Source of the DNA: a virus
Lineage: Duplodnaviria; Heunggongvirae; Uroviricota; Caudoviricetes
Reading direction: 5' to 3' (one strand)
IMG/VR virus record: IMGVR_UViG_2671180846_000031
DNA length: 8,338 bases
Position 1 is the first letter of the stretch; each line of letters begins with the position of its first letter. Positions 1-6,732 of this stretch are shown piece by piece. The position numbers and the translations under genes were made by a program. The notes below the pieces were generated by a model that was given only the letters and a program-made list of their open reading frames with translations, was not told the origin of the DNA and did no database searches.

Positions 1-203
1 ACCGGCATTTCTCTGACTTCTCCGGTCTGCTTATCCACGCCAGCCTCAACATTGCGGGTGGAAAGATGATCCTGACCGGATGAAACGGATAACCCCATTG
101 CATCCAGACGGGTCTGAGACAATGGCCGGACACGGCAGCGGCAGTTCCAGCCATTGGGTGGGTAGTGTGTATTCCAGAACGGATCGTCATAGCGGAATAC
201 CAG
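1..203 (-). CDS. Head-morphogenesis protein, Mu F (gp30)-like, internal fragment running off the window start
   Basis: Minus-strand translation of 203->1 reads [67 protein letters not shown]. The PPxGWNCRC block is the motif I associate with the Mu F / SPP1 gp7 head-morphogenesis family, and portal followed by F is the Mu gene order. The fragment is cut off from the N-terminal part by N gaps. Confidence 0.55.
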
Positions 204-253
204 NNNNNNNNNNNNNNNNNNNNNNNNNNNNNNNNNNNNNNNNNNNNNNNNNN
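204..253. other. Assembly gap or masked run (50 N)
   Basis: Exactly 50 consecutive N in the sequence. Confidence 0.95.
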
Positions 254-502
254 CGCTGTCCACCACAATCTGCTTTCCCCACCATCCCAGCTTTTGCAGG
301 CGGGGTGTCAGTGTGCGGATAAATGCTTTCTGTGAAATCCCCTCATCAACAGCACGCTGCACTTCCGCCTGTAGTGTGGTCAGTACGTCCAGGCGTGCCA
401 CTTTTGCCGCCGTGAATGAACGGGCATGAACATCTGCGTTTGTTTCGAACCAGTTCCAGCTGATATGCGCCCCTTTGGCGCGGAAGTATGCCACCGCCTC
501 TT
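254..502 (-). repeat. Second, ~97%-identical copy of the F-gene N-terminal coding segment (duplicate of 565..813), bounded by N gaps on both sides
   Basis: Direct comparison of 254-502 with 565-813 shows about 8 mismatches in 249 bp. On the minus strand both copies translate to the same F-like peptide (...AYFRAKGAHISWNWFET[N/D]ADVHARSFTAAKVARLDVLTTLQAEVQRA[V/I]DEGISQKAFIRTLTPRLQKLGWWGKQIVVDS...); six of the differences are synonymous. Confidence 0.8.
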
Positions 503-552
503 NNNNNNNNNNNNNNNNNNNNNNNNNNNNNNNNNNNNNNNNNNNNNNNNNN
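503..552. other. Assembly gap or masked run (50 N)
   Basis: Exactly 50 consecutive N in the sequence. Confidence 0.95.
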
Positions 553-857
553 GCGTTACCGGCGCTGTCCACCACAATCTGCTTTCCCCACCATCCCAGC
601 TTTTGCAGGCGGGGGGTCAGTGTGCGGATAAATGCTTTCTGTGAAATCCCCTCATCAATGGCCCGTTGCACTTCCGCCTGTAGTGTGGTCAGTACGTCCA
701 GGCGTGCCACTTTTGCCGCCGTGAACGAACGGGCATGAACATCCGCGTCTGTTTCGAACCAGTTCCAGCTGATATGCGCCCCTTTGGCGCGGAAGTATGC
801 CACCGCCTCTTTTGAGGGAAGGGTGGCGGCATAACCTAAATCAATCCCCTGTGCCAT
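553..857 (-). CDS. Head-morphogenesis protein, Mu F (gp30)-like, N-terminal part (truncated by the gap at 503-552)
   Basis: ATG at 857..855 with AAGGGG Shine-Dalgarno about 8 nt upstream; the start overlaps the portal 3' end by 17 nt. Translation: MAQGIDLGYAATLPSKEAVAYFRAKGAHISWNWFETDADVHARSFTAAKVARLDVLTTLQAEVQRAIDEGISQKAFIRTLTPRLQKLGWWGKQIVVDSAGNA, which resembles the N-termini of Mu F-like proteins as I recall them. This frame is absent from the ORF track because the gap truncates it. Confidence 0.6.
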
Positions 858-2443
858 CCAGCATCCCCTTCATTTCCGCAGCAAACATGGCATCACTGAG
901 CAGCGTCATCAGGCGGGAATCATCCATTTCACGGTAAAGGGCAGGCAGGTCTGCCAGTGCCTCCGCCAGCCCCCGCGTTCTGATGGCATCAATGACCGGC
1001 TCCAGTACCGGGTCGATGGCCTCCTGTAACCGGCGGGCAGGCACCGCATCCCCCATGTCGTCCAGTTCATCTCGGGGGCTGCTNNNNNNNNNNNNNNNNN
1101 NNNNNNNNNNNNNNNNNNNNNNNNNNNNNNNNNTCCTGTTTTTCCGGTGGCATCTCTTTGTCTGTCTGAGCAGGTTCATTGCCACTCTGACGGACACGGA
1201 AGATGGCTTCACCGGGGGCAGGCTGTGGAATACCGGTCTGCTCCCGTACCCAGGGATCAGGAATATCCATCCCCGTACTGAGCTGCATCACCGCACTGGT
1301 GATTTTGGTGATATCCCCCGGCTCTTTTGTCTGGAAACAGATACGCGGCAGGCGACGGATATCAATGGCGTGGGCGGTGTTCAGGGCATACAGCGGATAC
1401 ACCAGATCGCGGTTCAGCGTGGCGGCCAGCTGACGTAAATCAGAATCCCTGATTTCCCGGCGCACCTCGTTATGCACTTCACCCAGCGAACGTGCGCCCT
1501 TGTCTCCGGCTTCCGTGGTCAGCGTGCCGCCGAGGATAGCTTTGGAGATGGAACGCTCCCCCCACGAAATCATGGTTTCAAACGGATCGGCCTGACCGTT
1601 CGCTGCCGCCTGAAACTCCAGCGACATCCCGGCCGGGATGATCCCGCCTGTACGTCGCCCGATATCCATCACCGCCCGCATCAGGGCGCTTTTCTGCTCC
1701 GGCGTTGCCCCGGACGGGTATTTACCGACCTTCATCGGCAGGCCGTACACCTCCAGAAATTCAGCCAGATCGCGCACGGAATAGTTTTTGAAAATGAACG
1801 GCCAGATAAGCGTTCTGACAAGCCCCGTCGCACCACCGTAGCCGGTGCGTGAACGTGACTGATGCACTATCCAGCCAAAGGGCTGAAACGCCACCCCGGC
1901 ATGGCTGCCGTCACGCAGCCGCAGTTCGCTCAAATCATCCGGGTTAAGGCAGAAATGCCCGCTGTCACGCCAGCGGATGGCGCGGATGATGTGCATTTTA
2001 CCGAGCATCCCGTGCTCAATCTCCATGCAGGAATAGCCTTTCAGGATGGCATCGGTGGCATCAAACAGCATGGCATCAAACCAGTCGGCGGAATGCAGAT
2101 ATTCGTCGAGCATTTCCGCGTCCTTTTTCTCATTCGCGCTGGCGTTCGGGGGCGGCTCAATACTCCAGGGCACGCCCTGAATGGCAAGACGTCGCTTGCC
2201 CAGCTCTGCAAAAAGGTGGGTATCCTTTTCTTCAATGTCAGCGGCCAGATCGGACTGGGCAATCAGATCGCCACGTTCAGCCCCGCGAAGGCACTGTGCC
2301 GCCCGGTTCGGGGTGATACCCGAGGCCGGATGTTCAATATAACGGCTGGCAATCTGCGGAATATCCAGCGCGGCGCTCTGCATCTCCGGGTCAAAGGAGA
2401 AAGGTTTTCCGTCAAGATCAATTATACGTCCCACTACCAGCAC
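841..2443 (-). CDS. Phage portal protein, Mu gp29-like (DUF935-type), interrupted by the N gap at 1084-1133
   Basis: A 458-aa ORF (1067..2443) plus an 80-aa C-terminal continuation (841..1083, ending ...EMKGMLDGTGD). The frames differ only because the gap length is arbitrary. It lies between the large terminase and F as in Mu. The ORF-track start is GTG at 2443, overlapping the terL stop (TAG 2434-2436); the true start is uncertain (next in-frame ATG at 2383, without a good SD). Confidence 0.75.
1084..1133. other. Assembly gap or masked run (50 N) inside the portal gene
   Basis: Exactly 50 consecutive N in the sequence. Confidence 0.95.
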
Positions 2444-4098
2444 CCCCGATCAAATTCATGATATGCCTCATCGTCATCACGATAACCGCCCTCCATGGCC
2501 CGCGACCGCTCCGGCAGCGCCTGACAGGCTGATTCATCCAGGATGAAGCCCTCCATGTATGACGCCCGGTTTGCCATACAGAGCGCCACGGCAAAATCGC
2601 CATGGCGGCGGGCGTTCACAGCCGTTGCGTTCTGGTCCTTCGTACGCCCCTTGTCAATTTGCGGGATACCGTTCACCACCTTCACATGGCGCAAATCATC
2701 AAGCGTGGTCTGATGGCGGGCGACGAGGATATTCTGATCCTCAAACTCGGCCTTCAGTTTTGGCATCCACTCGCCGTACCACTTCGGCGATAACATCACG
2801 CAGTCGATGATGTCCGGGCCAAAGGCCAGCAGCGCGGCTTCGGCCAGATAGCCGCCGTTACCGGTGGCGTCGAACGCCGCACCGACCAGCGCCGGAACGC
2901 GGGTCAGGATGTACATCATCACCTGCTCCTGCTGGGCATACGGCAGGTTGCGCAGCTCCACGCGAAACACCTCGCGTTTTGCCAGGGATTCAGTGATTTC
3001 CAGCAGCACAAAGCAGGAGAGGTCACCGATGCGGGCAAAGTCTTCCCCGAAGCTGAAGCGGGAACGGGGATTTAACGCCTCTAAAAGCGGTTTTAAATGT
3101 TCTTCACACCAGGTTAAAACCTCCGATTCACGCAGCCATGCGGCACGGCTGATGAAGTCGTCCGGGGCTTCAAACGTCAGAATCGGGATGTCGCGGAGCA
3201 TCGCCATTTCAATAAGCGCGTGAGGAATATAGGCACCGCCGGATTTTTTCGGGATACAGCCGTATTCCTCGTCGGCATCCTCACGGGTCGGGGCGTTTTT
3301 GTAGAGATCATCACGCCACTTCTGCTCGCTTTCCGGTGACCATTCGCGGCCGGTGACATAACAGATACGACGGTACAGCCCGTCCGCAATGGCATCATCC
3401 AGGGTAATGCGGTGGACGCTGTAATCCTTGCGCCCCTCGCGGGCTTCCTGAATGTACTGATTAAACAGATTATCGACGCCGTTATGCGTGGAGATAATAC
3501 GCACGCGCGCGCCCCACATGGTGAGCGCCATTGCCGCCTTGAGAAGCTCATCCAGTGACTCGTGGAACGCGGCTTCATCAATCACCACATCCCCCTGAAG
3601 GCCGCGCAGGTTTGACGGACGGGAAGACAGTGCCTGAATTTTGAATCCACTGTTCGGAAAGCGGATCATGTAGGTCAGAATTTCTTCTTTTTTATCCCGA
3701 TCCCAGAAGGTCTGCTCATACACATCAGCATCTGCCAGCTGGTTAAAGGCACGGGAGAACAGTGCGCAGGCAGAAATATATTCCAGCGCCATCTCCTGCT
3801 TTGACCCCACATAAAACACATTGCGGCCACCACGCCGCTTAGGCTTTGCGGCGGTAATGACGTTACGCCCGGCTTCCGCCCAGGTAAGCCCGGTGCGGCG
3901 GGATTTTTCCGCGATGCAGACCTCGCTTTCATCCTCAAACCAGCGGGCCTGATAATCCAGAAATACCGGCATATCACCGGGCAAATCAAGGCTGTCCGGC
4001 ACATCCACGCCCAGCAGGGCTTTTTCACCGGCCAGATCAATTTTGCGGGTGGAGACGGTATTCGTCAGTAAGGGGGAGAGTTCTTCGGCGTTATTCAT
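2434..4098 (-). CDS. terL: Terminase large subunit (Mu gp28-like)
   Basis: A 554-aa ORF whose ATG (4098..4096) overlaps the stop of the upstream small-terminase gene (ATGA). It carries a P-loop-like segment (EKSRRTGLTWAEAG) and a Walker B-like GDVVIDEAAF, followed by an acidic C-terminal half consistent with a nuclease domain. Size and position between the gp27-like gene and the portal match a phage TerL. Confidence 0.85.
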   Translation of the reverse strand: MNNAEELSPLLTNTVSTRKIDLAGEKALLGVDVPDSLDLPGDMPVFLDYQARWFEDESEVCIAEKSRRTGLTWAEAGRNVITAAKPKRRGGRNVFYVGSKQEMALEYISACALFSRAFNQLADADVYEQTFWDRDKKEEILTYMIRFPNSGFKIQALSSRPSNLRGLQGDVVIDEAAFHESLDELLKAAMALTMWGARVRIISTHNGVDNLFNQYIQEAREGRKDYSVHRITLDDAIADGLYRRICYVTGREWSPESEQKWRDDLYKNAPTREDADEEYGCIPKKSGGAYIPHALIEMAMLRDIPILTFEAPDDFISRAAWLRESEVLTWCEEHLKPLLEALNPRSRFSFGEDFARIGDLSCFVLLEITESLAKREVFRVELRNLPYAQQEQVMMYILTRVPALVGAAFDATGNGGYLAEAALLAFGPDIIDCVMLSPKWYGEWMPKLKAEFEDQNILVARHQTTLDDLRHVKVVNGIPQIDKGRTKDQNATAVNARRHGDFAVALCMANRASYMEGFILDESACQALPERSRAMEGGYRDDDEAYHEFDRGCW

Positions 4099-4679
4099 CA
4101 GGCTTTACCCAACAGAATCCCCTTAATACGGGACTCAAGCTGTTCACTCATCCCGTCCACGCCGCGCAGCTCGTCGGTGACCGCGTTTGCCATCTCTTCA
4201 GCAAATGCGGCCCGGATTTCTTTTTCACGCTTAATGCTGCGCTCGGCAGCACTTTCCGCACGCTGTGCTGACAGGAGGATGTCTTTGATGAGGCGCATAT
4301 CCACGTCGCTGTCGCTGTTCAGAGATTCGGTCGCGGCACGCAGGCGGCGGTACATCAGGGCGCGGGACATTTCCAGAATCAGCGCTGTGGTTTCACCGGT
4401 TGGCTTGTCCCCCAGTTCGGCCATCATGGCTTTTGTCTGCTCGCGTAAATCACGCAGGTTACGGGCAATCAGCTCATTACGGGAGGCTTCCCGGCTGATG
4501 GCCGCCGGTGAAAGCTGCTGCTCTTCCGGCAGGCCCGCCTCACGGATCAGACGGTTGATTTCCTCGCGGATCTGGACCTGCGTCAGACGTTTTTCACGCA
4601 GCATTTCCAGCAGCGGCTTACGGATGCTGTCGGGGAGCAAATCCACCTTGCGCACGCGGCCACGCGTCGGCTTGTCCAT
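4098..4679 (-). CDS. Mu gp27-like protein (DUF3486-type), putative terminase small subunit
   Basis: A 193-aa ORF with ATG at 4679 and AAGGGGG SD about 7 nt upstream. The basic N-terminus (RGRVRKVDLLPDSIRKPLLEMLREKRLTQVQIREE) looks like a DNA-binding region, followed by a charged helical C-terminal half. It sits immediately upstream of terL and is translationally coupled to it. Confidence 0.65.
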   Translation of the reverse strand: MDKPTRGRVRKVDLLPDSIRKPLLEMLREKRLTQVQIREEINRLIREAGLPEEQQLSPAAISREASRNELIARNLRDLREQTKAMMAELGDKPTGETTALILEMSRALMYRRLRAATESLNSDSDVDMRLIKDILLSAQRAESAAERSIKREKEIRAAFAEEMANAVTDELRGVDGMSEQLESRIKGILLGKA

Positions 4680-4681
4680 CG

Positions 4682-4972
4682 CTACCCCCTTGCGCGTGGT
4701 TTCTTCACACCCGGAACGCAGGCCCGGCCTTCCGCCACATCCTGCCCACGACCGGTCAGTTCCGCGATGAAATAACCGTTAATCAGAACGCGTTTGCGCA
4801 CCAGTCCCTGCTCGGCAAGCCAGGCAATGTGGGTGTGAACGGTGTCGCGGGACACGCGGTGGCCGTAATCATCCAGACAGTCCTGGAGCACGGATTCACC
4901 CAGTTCACCGTTGTAATCTGCCAGCGACCGCAGAATGACCAGACGCTGATCTTCAGTAATGAAATCACTCAT
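4682..4972 (-). CDS. Small conserved phage protein, Mu gp26-positional equivalent; function unknown
   Basis: A 96-aa ORF whose ATG (4972..4970) overlaps the stop of the upstream gene (ATGA), with AAGGA upstream. It is soluble (no TM segment) with a basic C-terminal tail (GVKKPRARG). No family is confidently recognised from sequence alone. Confidence 0.5.
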   Translation of the reverse strand: MSDFITEDQRLVILRSLADYNGELGESVLQDCLDDYGHRVSRDTVHTHIAWLAEQGLVRKRVLINGYFIAELTGRGQDVAEGRACVPGVKKPRARG

Positions 4973-5277
4973 TGCGTTTTTTTCCTTACAGCCTGCTCCA
5001 GCAGCAGTTCGTTCTGATAGGAGACAGAGCGGAGCGTGGCGTTCGTGGTTTTCAGTTCACCCCGCAGGGTCACGATTTCCACATTCAGACGGTTGACCTC
5101 AGCTTCTGTCGGCAGTGACGACAGGCGGGTTTCCACCTTCTCAACGCGGTCGGAGAGTTTTTCAAAGGCCTCGCGGGGGACAAACGTTTTGCGCATCAGC
5201 GCCATGAATATCCCGCCAGCGGTTGCCGTCGCCGAAAGGATCGGCACAACATAATCTTTAACGATGCTGACCCACAT
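4969..5277 (-). CDS. Small type-II membrane protein, Mu gp25-like; candidate lysis-associated protein (possible releasin)
   Basis: A 102-aa ORF with GGAGG SD about 8 nt upstream of ATG 5277. It has a single N-terminal TM helix (VVPILSATATAGGIFMALM) followed by a coiled-coil-like segment (EKLSDRVEKVETRLSSLPTEAEVNRLNVEIVTLRGELK). Position after the spanins matches Mu gp25. Confidence 0.55.
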   Translation of the reverse strand: MWVSIVKDYVVPILSATATAGGIFMALMRKTFVPREAFEKLSDRVEKVETRLSSLPTEAEVNRLNVEIVTLRGELKTTNATLRSVSYQNELLLEQAVRKKTQ

Positions 5278-5485
5278 GACGGGCCTCCATGATGTTCTGG
5301 CAGTTCACACAACGGATGGCATCCGGCACAGCAACAAGACGTGCGGCGGGGATCTCTCCGCCACAGTCCGCGCAGACACGTCTGCCCGGAGCATCCATTG
5401 CCCGGCGCTTACGTGTCAGCCGGTTACAAAGGGCGCGTTCTGATCCCCGCTCCATCACAGCCTGAGCACGATCTGAATCATCCAT
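5258..5485 (-). CDS. TraR/DksA-family C4-type zinc-finger protein
   Basis: Contains C-x2-C-x17-C-x2-C (CADCGGEIPAARLVAVPDAIRCVNC), the DksA/TraR zinc-ribbon spacing. Preferred start is ATG 5485 with AAGGA SD, 10 nt after the o-spanin stop, giving about 75 aa (TraR-sized). The ORF track extends to an upstream in-frame ATG at 5551, which would overlap the o-spanin. Confidence 0.7.
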   Translation of the reverse strand: MDDSDRAQAVMERGSERALCNRLTRKRRAMDAPGRRVCADCGGEIPAARLVAVPDAIRCVNCQNIMEARHVGQHR

Positions 5486-5495
5486 ACCTTTTTCC

Positions 5496-5867
5496 TTACT
5501 TCGTCTTTCCTGCCGGAACAGCAGGCGTTCCGGCCATATCAGTAAATTCATGTTGTCGCCGCGCCTCCAGACGACGAATACTGGCCTTGTCCACGTTGCA
5601 GTTCTTGATCACCGCCAGCAGTTGCAGGTTGTAAGTGACCGATGCCCCAAACGTGAACGGCTCCGGCGCAGGAGGGACCAGGCAGTCAGCCAGCCATTCA
5701 GCGGGGATCGGCACCGGCTTCACAGGCACGTATTTCACAGACGGCCCGGCGCACCCGATCAGCCACATCATCAGGAACAGGGGCAGAGGCCGCAGGCACT
5801 GCCGCCAGCGACCGGCGGACAACGCTCTGCTGCCCCTCGCTGTGCTGAATGTTCTGTTGTTTTTCAT
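5496..5867 (-). CDS. o-spanin (Rz1-like outer-membrane lipoprotein), overlapped architecture
   Basis: Alternate-frame ORF that begins inside the i-spanin gene and runs 200 nt past its stop. It has a lipobox LIGC and a proline-rich mature region (AGPSVKYVPVKPVPIPAEWLADCLVPPAPEPF). Tentative start is ATG 5867 with GAGG SD, but that gives an unusually long pre-lipobox region, so the start is uncertain. Confidence 0.55.
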   Translation of the reverse strand: MKNNRTFSTARGSRALSAGRWRQCLRPLPLFLMMWLIGCAGPSVKYVPVKPVPIPAEWLADCLVPPAPEPFTFGASVTYNLQLLAVIKNCNVDKASIRRLEARRQHEFTDMAGTPAVPAGKTK

Positions 5868-6198
5868 TCGTGGCCGCCTCACTGATTTGTGAAATGAGTT
5901 GCAGGGTGTGCTGCTGATTTGCCAGCACCTGACGCGCCTCATCCCGCTCACGCACAAGCACCTGATTATTGTCTTCAAGGCGCTGCGTCTTCTGGTGCAT
6001 TCCCCATATAGCGGCAACCAGTACAGCGATAATCCCCAGCGCCGCCATGCACGCCCCGGCAATCAGGGCCGGTAAGGCATTATTCACCGCAGCCACAGGA
6101 CACCCCGTAACAGCAGTACCGCACACAGCAGCGCTATCATGAGCGGTCGCCAGAAGCGGTTCAGACTTTCGGCAAGTCGTAGCGACATAACCATTCAT
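5698..6198 (-). CDS. i-spanin (Rz-like inner-membrane spanin subunit)
   Basis: A hydrophobic TM segment (ALPALIAGACMAALGIIAVLVAAIWG) is followed by a long charged, Gln-rich helical domain (QKTQRLEDNNQVLVRERDEARQVLANQQHTLQLISQISEAATNEKQQ...) and a C-terminal Cys pair (RRAVCEIRAC). It is immediately downstream of the endolysin and contains the out-of-frame o-spanin. The start is ambiguous: ATG 6198 (overlaps lys by 38 nt), GTG 6096 or 6087, or ATG 6048; the ORF-track start at 6219 is a TTG. Confidence 0.55.
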   Translation of the reverse strand: MNGYVATTCRKSEPLLATAHDSAAVCGTAVTGCPVAAVNNALPALIAGACMAALGIIAVLVAAIWGMHQKTQRLEDNNQVLVRERDEARQVLANQQHTLQLISQISEAATNEKQQNIQHSEGQQSVVRRSLAAVPAASAPVPDDVADRVRRAVCEIRACEAGADPR

Positions 6199-6661
6199 CC
6201 GCCGAACGGCGGGCCTCAAGGCCGGGGAGTTTCACCCCCTTTGAATAAATCCAGCGGATATACTGCTTACAGGACGCGGGCATCTGCCCGGCATTGATCA
6301 GGCGCAGAAGCGTGGAGTTGCGGAAGTTCGTTTCACCGGCCCAGAAGATCCACGAAGCCAGCGCCACCGTCTGACCACGGGTAAGCGGCACCTGAACACG
6401 CCGATCAATGGCCGCAAAGGCCCATTTCATGTCCTTTTCCAGTAGTTCCAGGCATTCTTCATCTGTCAGGGTCATACCCGGTTTCACATCCGGGCCGGTA
6501 TGGCCGTAACAGATGGTGGGTGTACCGGTGGGATCGATATACGTGGAGTTTTCTTTCCCTTCCCAGTAACCGGTGTAATGCGTGGCAATCGTGAACGTCC
6601 CGGCACCGGCCAGAACAAGGGCAATCAGCTTTTTACGCAGTGGTGCGGGGAGTTTTGGCAT
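6161..6661 (-). CDS. lys: Endolysin, T4-type lysozyme (GH24) with N-terminal signal-anchor-release (SAR) domain
   Basis: A 166-aa ORF with ATG at 6661. The N-terminus MPKLPAPLRKKLIALVLAGAGTFTIATHY has basic residues then a weakly hydrophobic Gly/Ala-rich helix, typical of SAR endolysins. It is followed by YWEGKENSTYIDPTGTPTICYGHTG, which has the Glu...Asp...Thr catalytic spacing of T4-lysozyme-like enzymes. Mu Lys is a known SAR endolysin. Confidence 0.8.
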   Translation of the reverse strand: MPKLPAPLRKKLIALVLAGAGTFTIATHYTGYWEGKENSTYIDPTGTPTICYGHTGPDVKPGMTLTDEECLELLEKDMKWAFAAIDRRVQVPLTRGQTVALASWIFWAGETNFRNSTLLRLINAGQMPASCKQYIRWIYSKGVKLPGLEARRSADEWLCRYDLPKV

Positions 6662-6662
6662 T

Positions 6663-6700
6663 GTTACGCTGTCTCATGATGTTCTCTGAGTCAGCGTAAC
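6663..6700 (-). promoter_or_regulatory. Perfect 9-bp inverted repeat (GTTACGCTG ... 20 nt ... CAGCGTAAC) abutting the lys start codon; candidate regulatory site or translation-occluding hairpin
   Basis: Plus-strand 6663-6671 gttacgctg and 6692-6700 cagcgtaac are exact reverse complements. On the minus-strand mRNA the 3' arm covers positions -2 to -10 relative to the lys ATG, where an SD would sit. No T-tract follows, so it is not a terminator. Confidence 0.35.
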
Positions 6701-6732
6701 GGTGAAGGAGAGGCGGCAGGCTTTGCGGAATA

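What the first reader, a model, noticed from the sequence alone, without database searches (positions are those of the whole stretch)
204..870. Two diverged alleles of the same F-gene segment, separated by 50-N gaps
Segments 254-502 and 565-813 are about 97% identical. Their 8 differences are mostly synonymous in the F reading frame (6 silent, plus V/I and N/D), which is the signature of two real homologous gene copies under purifying selection, not sequencing error. The middle copy is a short island bounded by exactly 50 N on each side. The likeliest explanation is that the source genome or sample holds two related Mu-like prophages and the scaffolder stitched a stray contig from the second copy into this one. 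A genuine in-gene tandem duplication, which would disrupt F, is the less likely alternative. Either way, gene content here should not be taken as contiguous.
Basis: seen in the sequence. Interest (0 to 1): 0.45.

Follow-up and report, generated by a model that had tools for sequence, protein, structure and literature searches.

The report
Duplicate gene piece from scaffolding error
The 249-base "second copy" of a phage head-assembly gene is a leftover alternative contig that a scaffolder placed next to the stretch it duplicates, so it is an assembly artefact and not a real gene duplication.

Summary
The repeat register is 254-502 against 563-811, not 565-813. There are 8 differences in 249 nt (96.8% identity): 6 synonymous, plus D37N and I67V in the Mu F (gp30-like) head-morphogenesis gene on the minus strand.

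Against an intact E. coli Mu-like prophage, the island maps wholly inside the stretch already covered by the next contig. The 50-N gaps really stand for 181 nt and 46 nt of missing sequence.

Both alleles occur as exact matches in finished E. coli genomes (18 and 14 listed records), always inside one uninterrupted 441-443 aa F gene. None of 30 related loci has a tandem copy. In the six two-copy genomes where both positions were listed, the copies lie 1.8-3.4 Mb apart.

Five of the six internal contig ends abut sites that vary between prophage lineages (P about 4e-6). A two-haplotype de Bruijn graph with k=63 reproduces five of six ends. It also predicts that this 8-SNP bubble is the only one in the broken region (L001 3204-3961) long enough to pass a 200-nt filter.

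Verdict: this is a scaffolding artefact caused by a second, closely related Mu-like prophage sequence in the sample. I cannot tell whether the second copy is in the same genome or comes from a mixed sample. Interest is low.

The parts
1..203 (-). Contig c1: F (Mu gp30-like head morphogenesis) codons 163-230. It is identical in both prophage lineages.
   Evidence: 100% identical to L001 3001-3203 and to L002. Pfam Phage_Mu_F scores 33.8 bits against a cutoff of 29.6. Its end at L001 3203 abuts variant site 3204.
204..253 (.). A 50-N placeholder. Together with the island and the next gap it replaces 181 real nt of F (L001 3204-3384, F nt 306-486).
254..502 (-). Island c2: a redundant B-lineage allele of F nt 47-295 (82 complete codons, 17-98). 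It is best read as the alternative branch of an assembly bubble.
   Evidence: Maps to L001 3395-3643 at 96.8%. Has 0 mismatches to L002, L004, L014 and others, and to 18 finished genomes. Its end equals the last SNP plus 62.
503..552 (.). A spurious 50-N gap. No real sequence belongs between c2 and c3, because they overlap on the reference.
553..1083 (-). Contig c3, A-lineage. It holds F codons 1-101 (555-857, ATG at 857) and the portal C-terminus (stop codon at 841-843).
   Evidence: 99.8% identical to L001 3385-3915. Translation. Its start equals the first SNP minus 62, and its end abuts variant site 3916.
563..811 (-). The segment of c3 that the island duplicates. This is the corrected register.
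1084..1133 (.). A 50-N placeholder inside the portal gene, standing for 46 real nt (L001 3916-3961). The length mismatch shifts the frame by 4.
1134..2434 (-). Start of contig c4: the rest of the Mu-type portal gene (DUF935/Portal_Mu). c4 continues to 8338 through the terminase-like gene, gp27, the lysis genes, Mor and GemA.
   Evidence: L001 annotation. Pfam labels on homologous loci. Its start at L001 3962 abuts variant site 3961.

Best explanation
The window is a short scaffold from a fragmented short-read assembly of an E. coli-type Mu-like (Sp18-like) prophage. The sequenced sample contained two closely related versions of this prophage. I call them A (like the prophage in strain 2012C-4502) and B (like the one in strain 90-3040). 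Where the two versions differ, the assembly graph forked. Shared stretches became contigs that stop flush against a variant base, and variant stretches became pairs of alternative 'bubble' contigs. Pieces shorter than about 200 nt were discarded. The 8-SNP bubble in the 5' part of F (259 nt predicted at k=63) was the only one in the broken region (L001 3204-3961) long enough for both branches to survive. The A branch was merged into contig c3 (553-1083). The B branch survived as the 249-nt contig c2 (254-502). A scaffolder or contig-ordering step then placed c2 beside c3 with fixed 50-N spacers. The true A-lineage sequence is one intact F gene: c3, then 181 missing nt, then c1. The portal gene likewise lacks only 46 nt at the third gap. 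Shown: the mapping, the allele identities, the absence of any tandem copy in relatives, and the coincidence of contig ends with variant sites. Inferred: the type of assembler, k=63, the 200-nt filter, and where the B copy resides.
For: c1, c3 and c4 map collinearly to an intact prophage at L001 3001-3203, 3385-3915 and 3962 onward. c2 maps to 3395-3643, nested inside c3. In that reference F is one 1332-nt gene. The c2 allele is 100% identical in 18 listed finished E. coli genomes and the c3 allele in 14, each under a single 'phage head morphogenesis protein' CDS. All 30 related loci carry the segment exactly once, with F called as 441-443 aa carrying Phage_Mu_F and MuF_C wherever a gene call for it is on record. 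Co-resident copies are real but distant: 266 places in 228 genomes, with up to 4 per genome. CP075665 has copies at 2.96 and 4.77 Mb, and CP038309 at 2.18 and 4.42 Mb. GCA_026134135.1 and GCA_025988525.1 each hold two prophages. Strain 8479 has one on the chromosome and one on a plasmid. The base just outside 5 of 6 internal contig ends is polymorphic among 19 related prophages (binomial P=4.4e-6). For the single A/B pair L001/L002 it is 3 of 6 (P=3.8e-5). The window's right end is also flush to a C/T site. A two-haplotype graph with B = L002, L004 or L014 reproduces 5 of 6 ends at k=63 and at no other k. That model predicts every other bubble between 3204 and 3961 to be under 200 nt, and the two missing stretches (181 nt and 46 nt) are indeed made up of such sub-200-nt pieces. 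Variant sites at 3204, 3916, 3961 and beyond 8338 show that the second haplotype extends well past the 249-nt island, which a small in-gene duplication would not do.
Against: I did not find the source assembly or its reads, so coverage and phasing are untested. The pure unitig model is imperfect. The c2 start is 10 nt short of the k=63 prediction. c3 runs through a predicted SNP at 3820, and c4 runs 7.2 kb through several predicted A/B sites without breaking. This needs either bubble merging by the assembler or a sample B haplotype that differs from the panel. The value of k and the polymorphism panel were both chosen after seeing the data, so the P values are rough. An assembly graph alone would look similar if the two haplotypes lay adjacent in the genome.
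Confidence: 0.9

Rival explanations
1. The artefact is the same, but the B allele comes from a second strain in the sequenced material (mixed culture, cross-sample contamination or a metagenomic bin) and not from a second prophage in the same chromosome. This is a sub-variant of the best explanation. Its confidence is the share of the artefact reading that I assign to this origin.
For: Only one short B-lineage piece is present, and c4 is not broken at other A/B sites. That fits patchy, low-coverage representation of a second haplotype. Both alleles are common among STEC strains that are often sequenced together.
Against: Multi-copy genomes are frequent enough to make the same-genome origin unremarkable: 38 extra places among 228 carrier genomes, with several concrete examples. 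Nothing in the window signals contamination directly.
Confidence: 0.35
2. A genuine tandem partial duplication or hybrid junction inside F, created by unequal recombination between two Mu-like prophages, so that F is really disrupted in this genome.
For: The scaffold order c3, c2, c1 is what a literal tandem repeat would give. A two-haplotype assembly graph cannot by itself tell adjacent copies from distant ones.
Against: The island is nested in the neighbour's coordinates and bounded by fixed 50-N spacers, with no sequenced junction. None of 30 loci has a tandem copy, and none was found in the 229 E. coli records that match. The island is an exact copy of a widespread intact allele and keeps a synonymous-dominated pattern, which is not expected for a decaying in-gene duplicate. 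Variant-site breakpoints at 3204, 3916, 3961 and past 8338 show the second haplotype spans far more than the island.
Confidence: 0.03
3. Sequencing or consensus error produced a false variant copy of the same locus.
For: None beyond the short length of the island.
Against: All 8 variant bases together reproduce, with no mismatch, an allele found in 18 finished genomes and 13 panel loci. Six of the eight are third-codon positions. Random error would not do this.
Confidence: 0.01

Closest known systems
Unmerged bubble branch (haplotig or redundant allelic contig) in a short-read assembly of a multi-copy prophage
   Same: A short contig duplicates part of its neighbour at about 97% identity. Contig ends sit at variant sites or k-1 bases beyond them. 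Fixed-length N spacers separate the pieces, and sub-200-nt pieces are missing.
   Different: Such branches usually stay unplaced. Here one was placed in series with its alternative. One end of the branch is 10 nt shorter than the k=63 prediction.
Sp18 of E. coli O157:H7 Sakai and related EHEC Mu-like prophages (for example Phi804-3 of FRIK804)
   Same: Same gene order: GemA, Mor, lysis genes, gp27, terminase-like gene, Portal_Mu, Mu F. The F segment is 98% identical to Sakai Sp18 (H93). PMC7430833 describes these prophages as about 39 kb, at strain-specific sites, able to transpose, and reports that the Sakai and FRIK804 prophages share 37.97 kbp (96.52%) sequence identity.
   Different: The window is a gapped draft. 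No biological difference from these prophages is demonstrated.
Bacteriophage Mu gp30 (F) / SPP1 gp7 family head-morphogenesis protein (Pfam PF04233 Phage_Mu_F)
   Same: The intact homologue has Phage_Mu_F (101 bits) and MuF_C (29.5 bits). The window fragment c1 carries the C-terminal motif of the domain at 33.8 bits, above the cutoff.
   Different: In the window the gene is split by gaps and cut off at codon 230. The island fragment alone is too short to reach the Pfam threshold.

Membership tests
Phage Mu F / SPP1 gp7 head morphogenesis protein (PF04233) | A Phage_Mu_F domain scoring above Pfam's gathering threshold | tested here: met
   c1 fragment: 33.8 bits against a 29.6 cutoff. Intact 99.8-100% identical homologue (L001 F): 101.2 bits.
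Phage Mu F / SPP1 gp7 head morphogenesis protein (PF04233) | Position immediately downstream of, and overlapping, a Mu-type portal gene in a head-morphogenesis module | tested here: met
   The F ATG at 857 overlaps the portal stop codon at 841-843. Homologous loci show Portal_Mu followed by Phage_Mu_F.
Phage Mu F / SPP1 gp7 head morphogenesis protein (PF04233) | The C-terminal MuF_C domain | not testable with these tools
   The window ends at F codon 230. The domain lies at residues 347-429 of the intact homologue.
Genuine tandem (in-gene) duplication | Both copies and their junction read on continuous sequence | tested here: not met
   The island is bounded on both sides by exactly 50 N, and no junction is sequenced.
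Genuine tandem (in-gene) duplication | The same arrangement present in related genomes | tested here: not met
   One copy per locus in all 30 loci. In the six two-copy genomes with both positions listed, the copies are 1.8-3.4 Mb apart.
Assembly artefact: redundant allelic contig placed by a scaffolder | The extra contig maps inside the reference interval of an adjacent contig | tested here: met
   c2 is L001 3395-3643 and c3 is L001 3385-3915.
Assembly artefact: redundant allelic contig placed by a scaffolder | Contig ends coincide with sites that differ between the two haplotypes | tested here: met
   5 of 6 internal ends (P=4.4e-6), and 3 of 6 for the single L001/L002 pair (P=3.8e-5). The k=63 graph reproduces 5 of 6.
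Assembly artefact: redundant allelic contig placed by a scaffolder | Each allele exists on its own as a normal single-copy gene elsewhere | tested here: met
   Exact matches in 18 and 14 listed finished genomes respectively.
Assembly artefact: redundant allelic contig placed by a scaffolder | Read evidence: doubled coverage on shared contigs, mixed bases at the 8 sites, and no read spanning a tandem junction | not testable with these tools
   The source assembly and its reads were not found.

The most novel reading that the evidence does not exclude
The scaffold order is literally true. Unequal recombination between two co-resident Mu-like prophages would then have produced a hybrid F gene with a partial tandem duplication made of an A-lineage copy and a B-lineage copy, inactivating head morphogenesis in this prophage.
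Probability: 0.03. Interest if true: 0.25.

Novelty: not a real feature. Interest (0 to 1): 0.07.

Why it matters
It matters only for data hygiene. Anyone annotating this scaffold would wrongly call F and the portal gene disrupted, duplicated or frameshifted. The 50-N spacers stand for 181 nt and 46 nt, and one spacer stands for nothing at all. The pattern also signals that the sample holds a second Sp18-like Mu-like prophage or a second strain, which affects prophage counts and typing for that isolate. It reveals no new biology.

Tried and rejected
**Locating the source assembly**
- A gap-spanning pattern in viral contigs found nothing.
- An island-specific 68-mer in viral contigs gave 6 contigs, none with N gaps or both alleles.
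- A two-allele IUPAC pattern found nothing in genome contigs. In metagenome contigs it gave 2 single-match contigs, neither of them the source.
- Exact-protein look-ups with GemA (481 blocks) and the 98-aa protein (3509 blocks) were too common to single out the source.

**Other checks**
- No exact suffix-prefix overlap longer than 1 nt exists between neighbouring contigs, so the pieces cannot simply be joined.
- I looked for a finished genome carrying both exact alleles. No record appears in both lists of exact matches. The closest are CP038309 (A allele 100%, second copy 99.2% to B) and CP075665 (B allele 100%, second copy 98.4% to A).
- I asked whether c4 belongs cleanly to one lineage. It does not, and is a natural mosaic like all of these prophages.
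- Sequencing error was rejected because the 8 variants jointly reproduce a known allele exactly.

Full report
**1. What is in the sequence**

The window has three runs of exactly 50 N, at 204-253, 503-552 and 1084-1133. They split it into four contigs: c1 (1-203), c2 (254-502), c3 (553-1083) and c4 (1134-8338). The repeat finder reports one long direct repeat, 254-502 against 563-811, at 97% identity. Nothing else exceeds 28 nt. In the correct register there are 8 substitutions and no indels, which is 96.8% identity.

The genes run on the minus strand. c3 holds the portal C-terminus (stop codon at 841-843) and the overlapping start of F (ATG at 857, codons 1-101). c2 holds F nt 47-295 (complete codons 17-98). 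c1 holds F codons 163-230. Six of the 8 differences are synonymous third-position changes. The other two are D37N and I67V.

**2. Gene identity**

In the closest finished genome, E. coli 2012C-4502 (locus L001), the region is annotated as a Mu-like head module: DUF935 portal, then 'phage head morphogenesis protein', then virion morphogenesis protein, protease and the gpT major head protein. The intact 443-aa F homologue has Pfam Phage_Mu_F (101 bits) and MuF_C (29.5 bits). The window's c1 fragment alone passes the Phage_Mu_F cutoff. The F segment is 98% identical to the one annotated as prophage Sp18 of O157:H7 Sakai (H93). EHEC Mu-like prophages of about 39 kb, at strain-specific sites and able to transpose, are described in PMC7430833.

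**3. Mapping to an intact prophage**

| Window contig | L001 position | Identity |
|---|---|---|
| c1 | 3001-3203 | 100% |
| c3 | 3385-3915 | 99.8% |
| c4 | 3962 onward | 99.2% |
| c2 | 3395-3643 | 96.8% |

c2 lies entirely inside the interval already covered by c3. The real layout is c1, then 181 missing nt, then c3, then 46 missing nt, then c4. c2 is redundant. The 50-N runs are placeholders of arbitrary length, and the middle one (503-552) corresponds to no sequence at all.

**4. Both alleles are ordinary, single-copy alleles elsewhere**

The segment is found in 228 of 5426 complete E. coli genomes. The c2 allele matches at 100% in 18 listed records and the c3 allele in 14. Each match lies under one 'phage head morphogenesis' or 'minor head' CDS. 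All 30 related loci I fetched from finished genomes, draft genomes, IMG/VR and metagenomes carry the segment exactly once. Wherever a gene call for F is on record in those loci, it is a single product of 441-443 aa. I found no tandem arrangement anywhere.

**5. Co-resident copies are real and common, but far apart**

There are 266 places in 228 genomes, with up to 4 per genome. Examples:
- CP075665 has an exact c2 allele at 2.96 Mb and a second copy at 4.77 Mb.
- CP038309 has an exact c3 allele at 4.42 Mb and a c2-like copy (99.2%) at 2.18 Mb.
- GCA_026134135.1 and GCA_025988525.1 each hold two prophages.
- Strain 8479 has one copy on the chromosome and one on a 167-kb plasmid.

A sample with two related Mu-like prophages is therefore unremarkable.

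**6. Signature of a two-haplotype assembly graph**

I compared an A-lineage prophage (L001) with a B-lineage one (L002, which carries the exact c2 allele). They differ at L001 3204, 3365, 3372, 3447-3581 (the 8 sites), 3654, 3820, 3916, 3961 and further on. The window's contig ends line up with these sites:
- c1 ends at 3203, one base before a variant.
- c3 ends at 3915, one base before a variant.
- c4 starts at 3962, one base after a variant.

Using a 19-prophage panel, the base just outside 5 of the 6 internal contig ends is polymorphic, where the local density of polymorphic sites is 6% (binomial P=4.4e-6). With the single A/B pair the count is 3 of 6 (P=3.8e-5). The window's right end is also flush to a C/T polymorphic base, which suggests the window is a whole short scaffold that ends at a graph fork. 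c1 is identical in both lineages, c2 is exact B, and c3 is A.

**7. A concrete model**

In a de Bruijn graph, shared unitigs end flush to a SNP, and bubble branches extend k-1 bases beyond the outer SNPs. The c3 start (3385 = 3447-62) and the c2 end (3643 = 3581+62) independently give k-1 = 62. I scanned k from 21 to 127 with each panel haplotype as B. Only k=63 with B = L002, L004 or L014 reproduces 5 of the 6 ends. All three carry the exact c2 allele.

Listing the predicted unitigs shows that the 8-SNP bubble at 3385-3643 (259 nt) is the only bubble between 3204 and 3961 whose branches exceed 200 nt. The stretches that are actually missing, 3204-3384 (181 nt) and 3916-3961 (46 nt), consist of pieces of 74-170 nt. 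A 200-nt minimum contig length is, from my own knowledge, the usual GenBank WGS threshold. It would explain both the gaps and why only this segment appears twice. This step is inference.

**8. What the model does not explain**

- The c2 start is 10 nt short of the k=63 prediction, although it does abut another polymorphic site at 3394.
- c3 runs through a predicted SNP at 3820.
- c4 runs 7.2 kb across several predicted A/B differences.

Either the assembler merged simple bubbles in favour of A, or the sample's B haplotype is identical to A in those places. These prophages are mosaics, and c3 itself carries the B state at window 822. The value of k and the panel were both chosen after seeing the data, so the P values are indicative only.

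**9. Rival explanations**

- A true in-gene tandem duplication is very unlikely (about 3%). No junction is sequenced, no relative has one, and the island is an exact copy of a circulating intact allele. The second haplotype also demonstrably extends from at least 3204 to 3961 and probably to the scaffold end, far beyond the 249 nt shown.
- Sequencing error is excluded, because the 8 variants jointly reproduce a known allele.
- What remains open is whether the B haplotype sits in the same genome or comes from a second strain in the sample. Only the reads could tell. I lean towards the same genome, at roughly 60:35.

**10. Source search**

I could not find the source record in viral contigs, genome contigs or metagenome contigs, nor through exact-protein look-ups.

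**11. Verdict**

It is a scaffolding or assembly artefact in a well-known Sp18-like Mu-like prophage and not a biological feature. Gene content across 1-1133 must not be read as contiguous: F and the portal gene are most likely intact in the underlying genome. Novelty: not a real feature. Interest: low.

Noticed in passing
window 1084-1133: A third 50-N gap, not mentioned in the finding, lies inside the Mu-type portal gene (window 841-2434, minus strand). It stands for 46 real nt (L001 3916-3961), so the placeholder shifts the frame by 4 and would make the portal gene look broken. Both of its edges are flush to A/B variant sites.
   Followed up: yes
window 8338 (right end): In related prophages the base just beyond the window's right end is polymorphic (C or T, followed by TCTG or TCAG). 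The window therefore probably ends at a real contig end at a graph fork, and the whole 8.3-kb window may be one short scaffold from a repeat-tangled region.
   Followed up: partly
window 822 (c3; L001 3654): The otherwise A-lineage contig c3 carries the B-lineage base at this one site. It is a small sign of natural mosaicism between lineages, or of a consensus drawn from mixed reads.
   Followed up: partly
window 4134-4733: This stretch, mainly the gp27-family gene, has at least 4 mismatches per 600 nt to every one of the 30 related loci. Flanking bins match some loci perfectly. It looks like a local mosaic segment not represented in the panel.
   Followed up: no
NZ_CP074994.1 (chromosome) and NZ_CP074995.1 (166,865-bp plasmid) of E. 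coli strain 8479: The same strain carries this prophage region on both its chromosome and a large plasmid. The F segment is 100% and 99.6% identical to the window's c3 allele. This is a real example of near-identical co-resident copies.
   Followed up: no
LC727881.1 57735-60062 and LC727895.1 21026-23353 (phages collection): Two Stx-converting phage records are annotated with a 'region of the inserted Bacteriophage Mu-like phage' that matches this window at 99.0% and 97.4%. In other words, the Mu-like element can sit inside Stx prophages.
   Followed up: no
L001 2277-2356 and L002 1883-1962 (just downstream of F, outside the window): RefSeq annotates an 80-nt 'tRNA-OTHER' on the opposite strand between F and the virion morphogenesis gene in these Mu-like prophages. 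I did not examine it.
   Followed up: no
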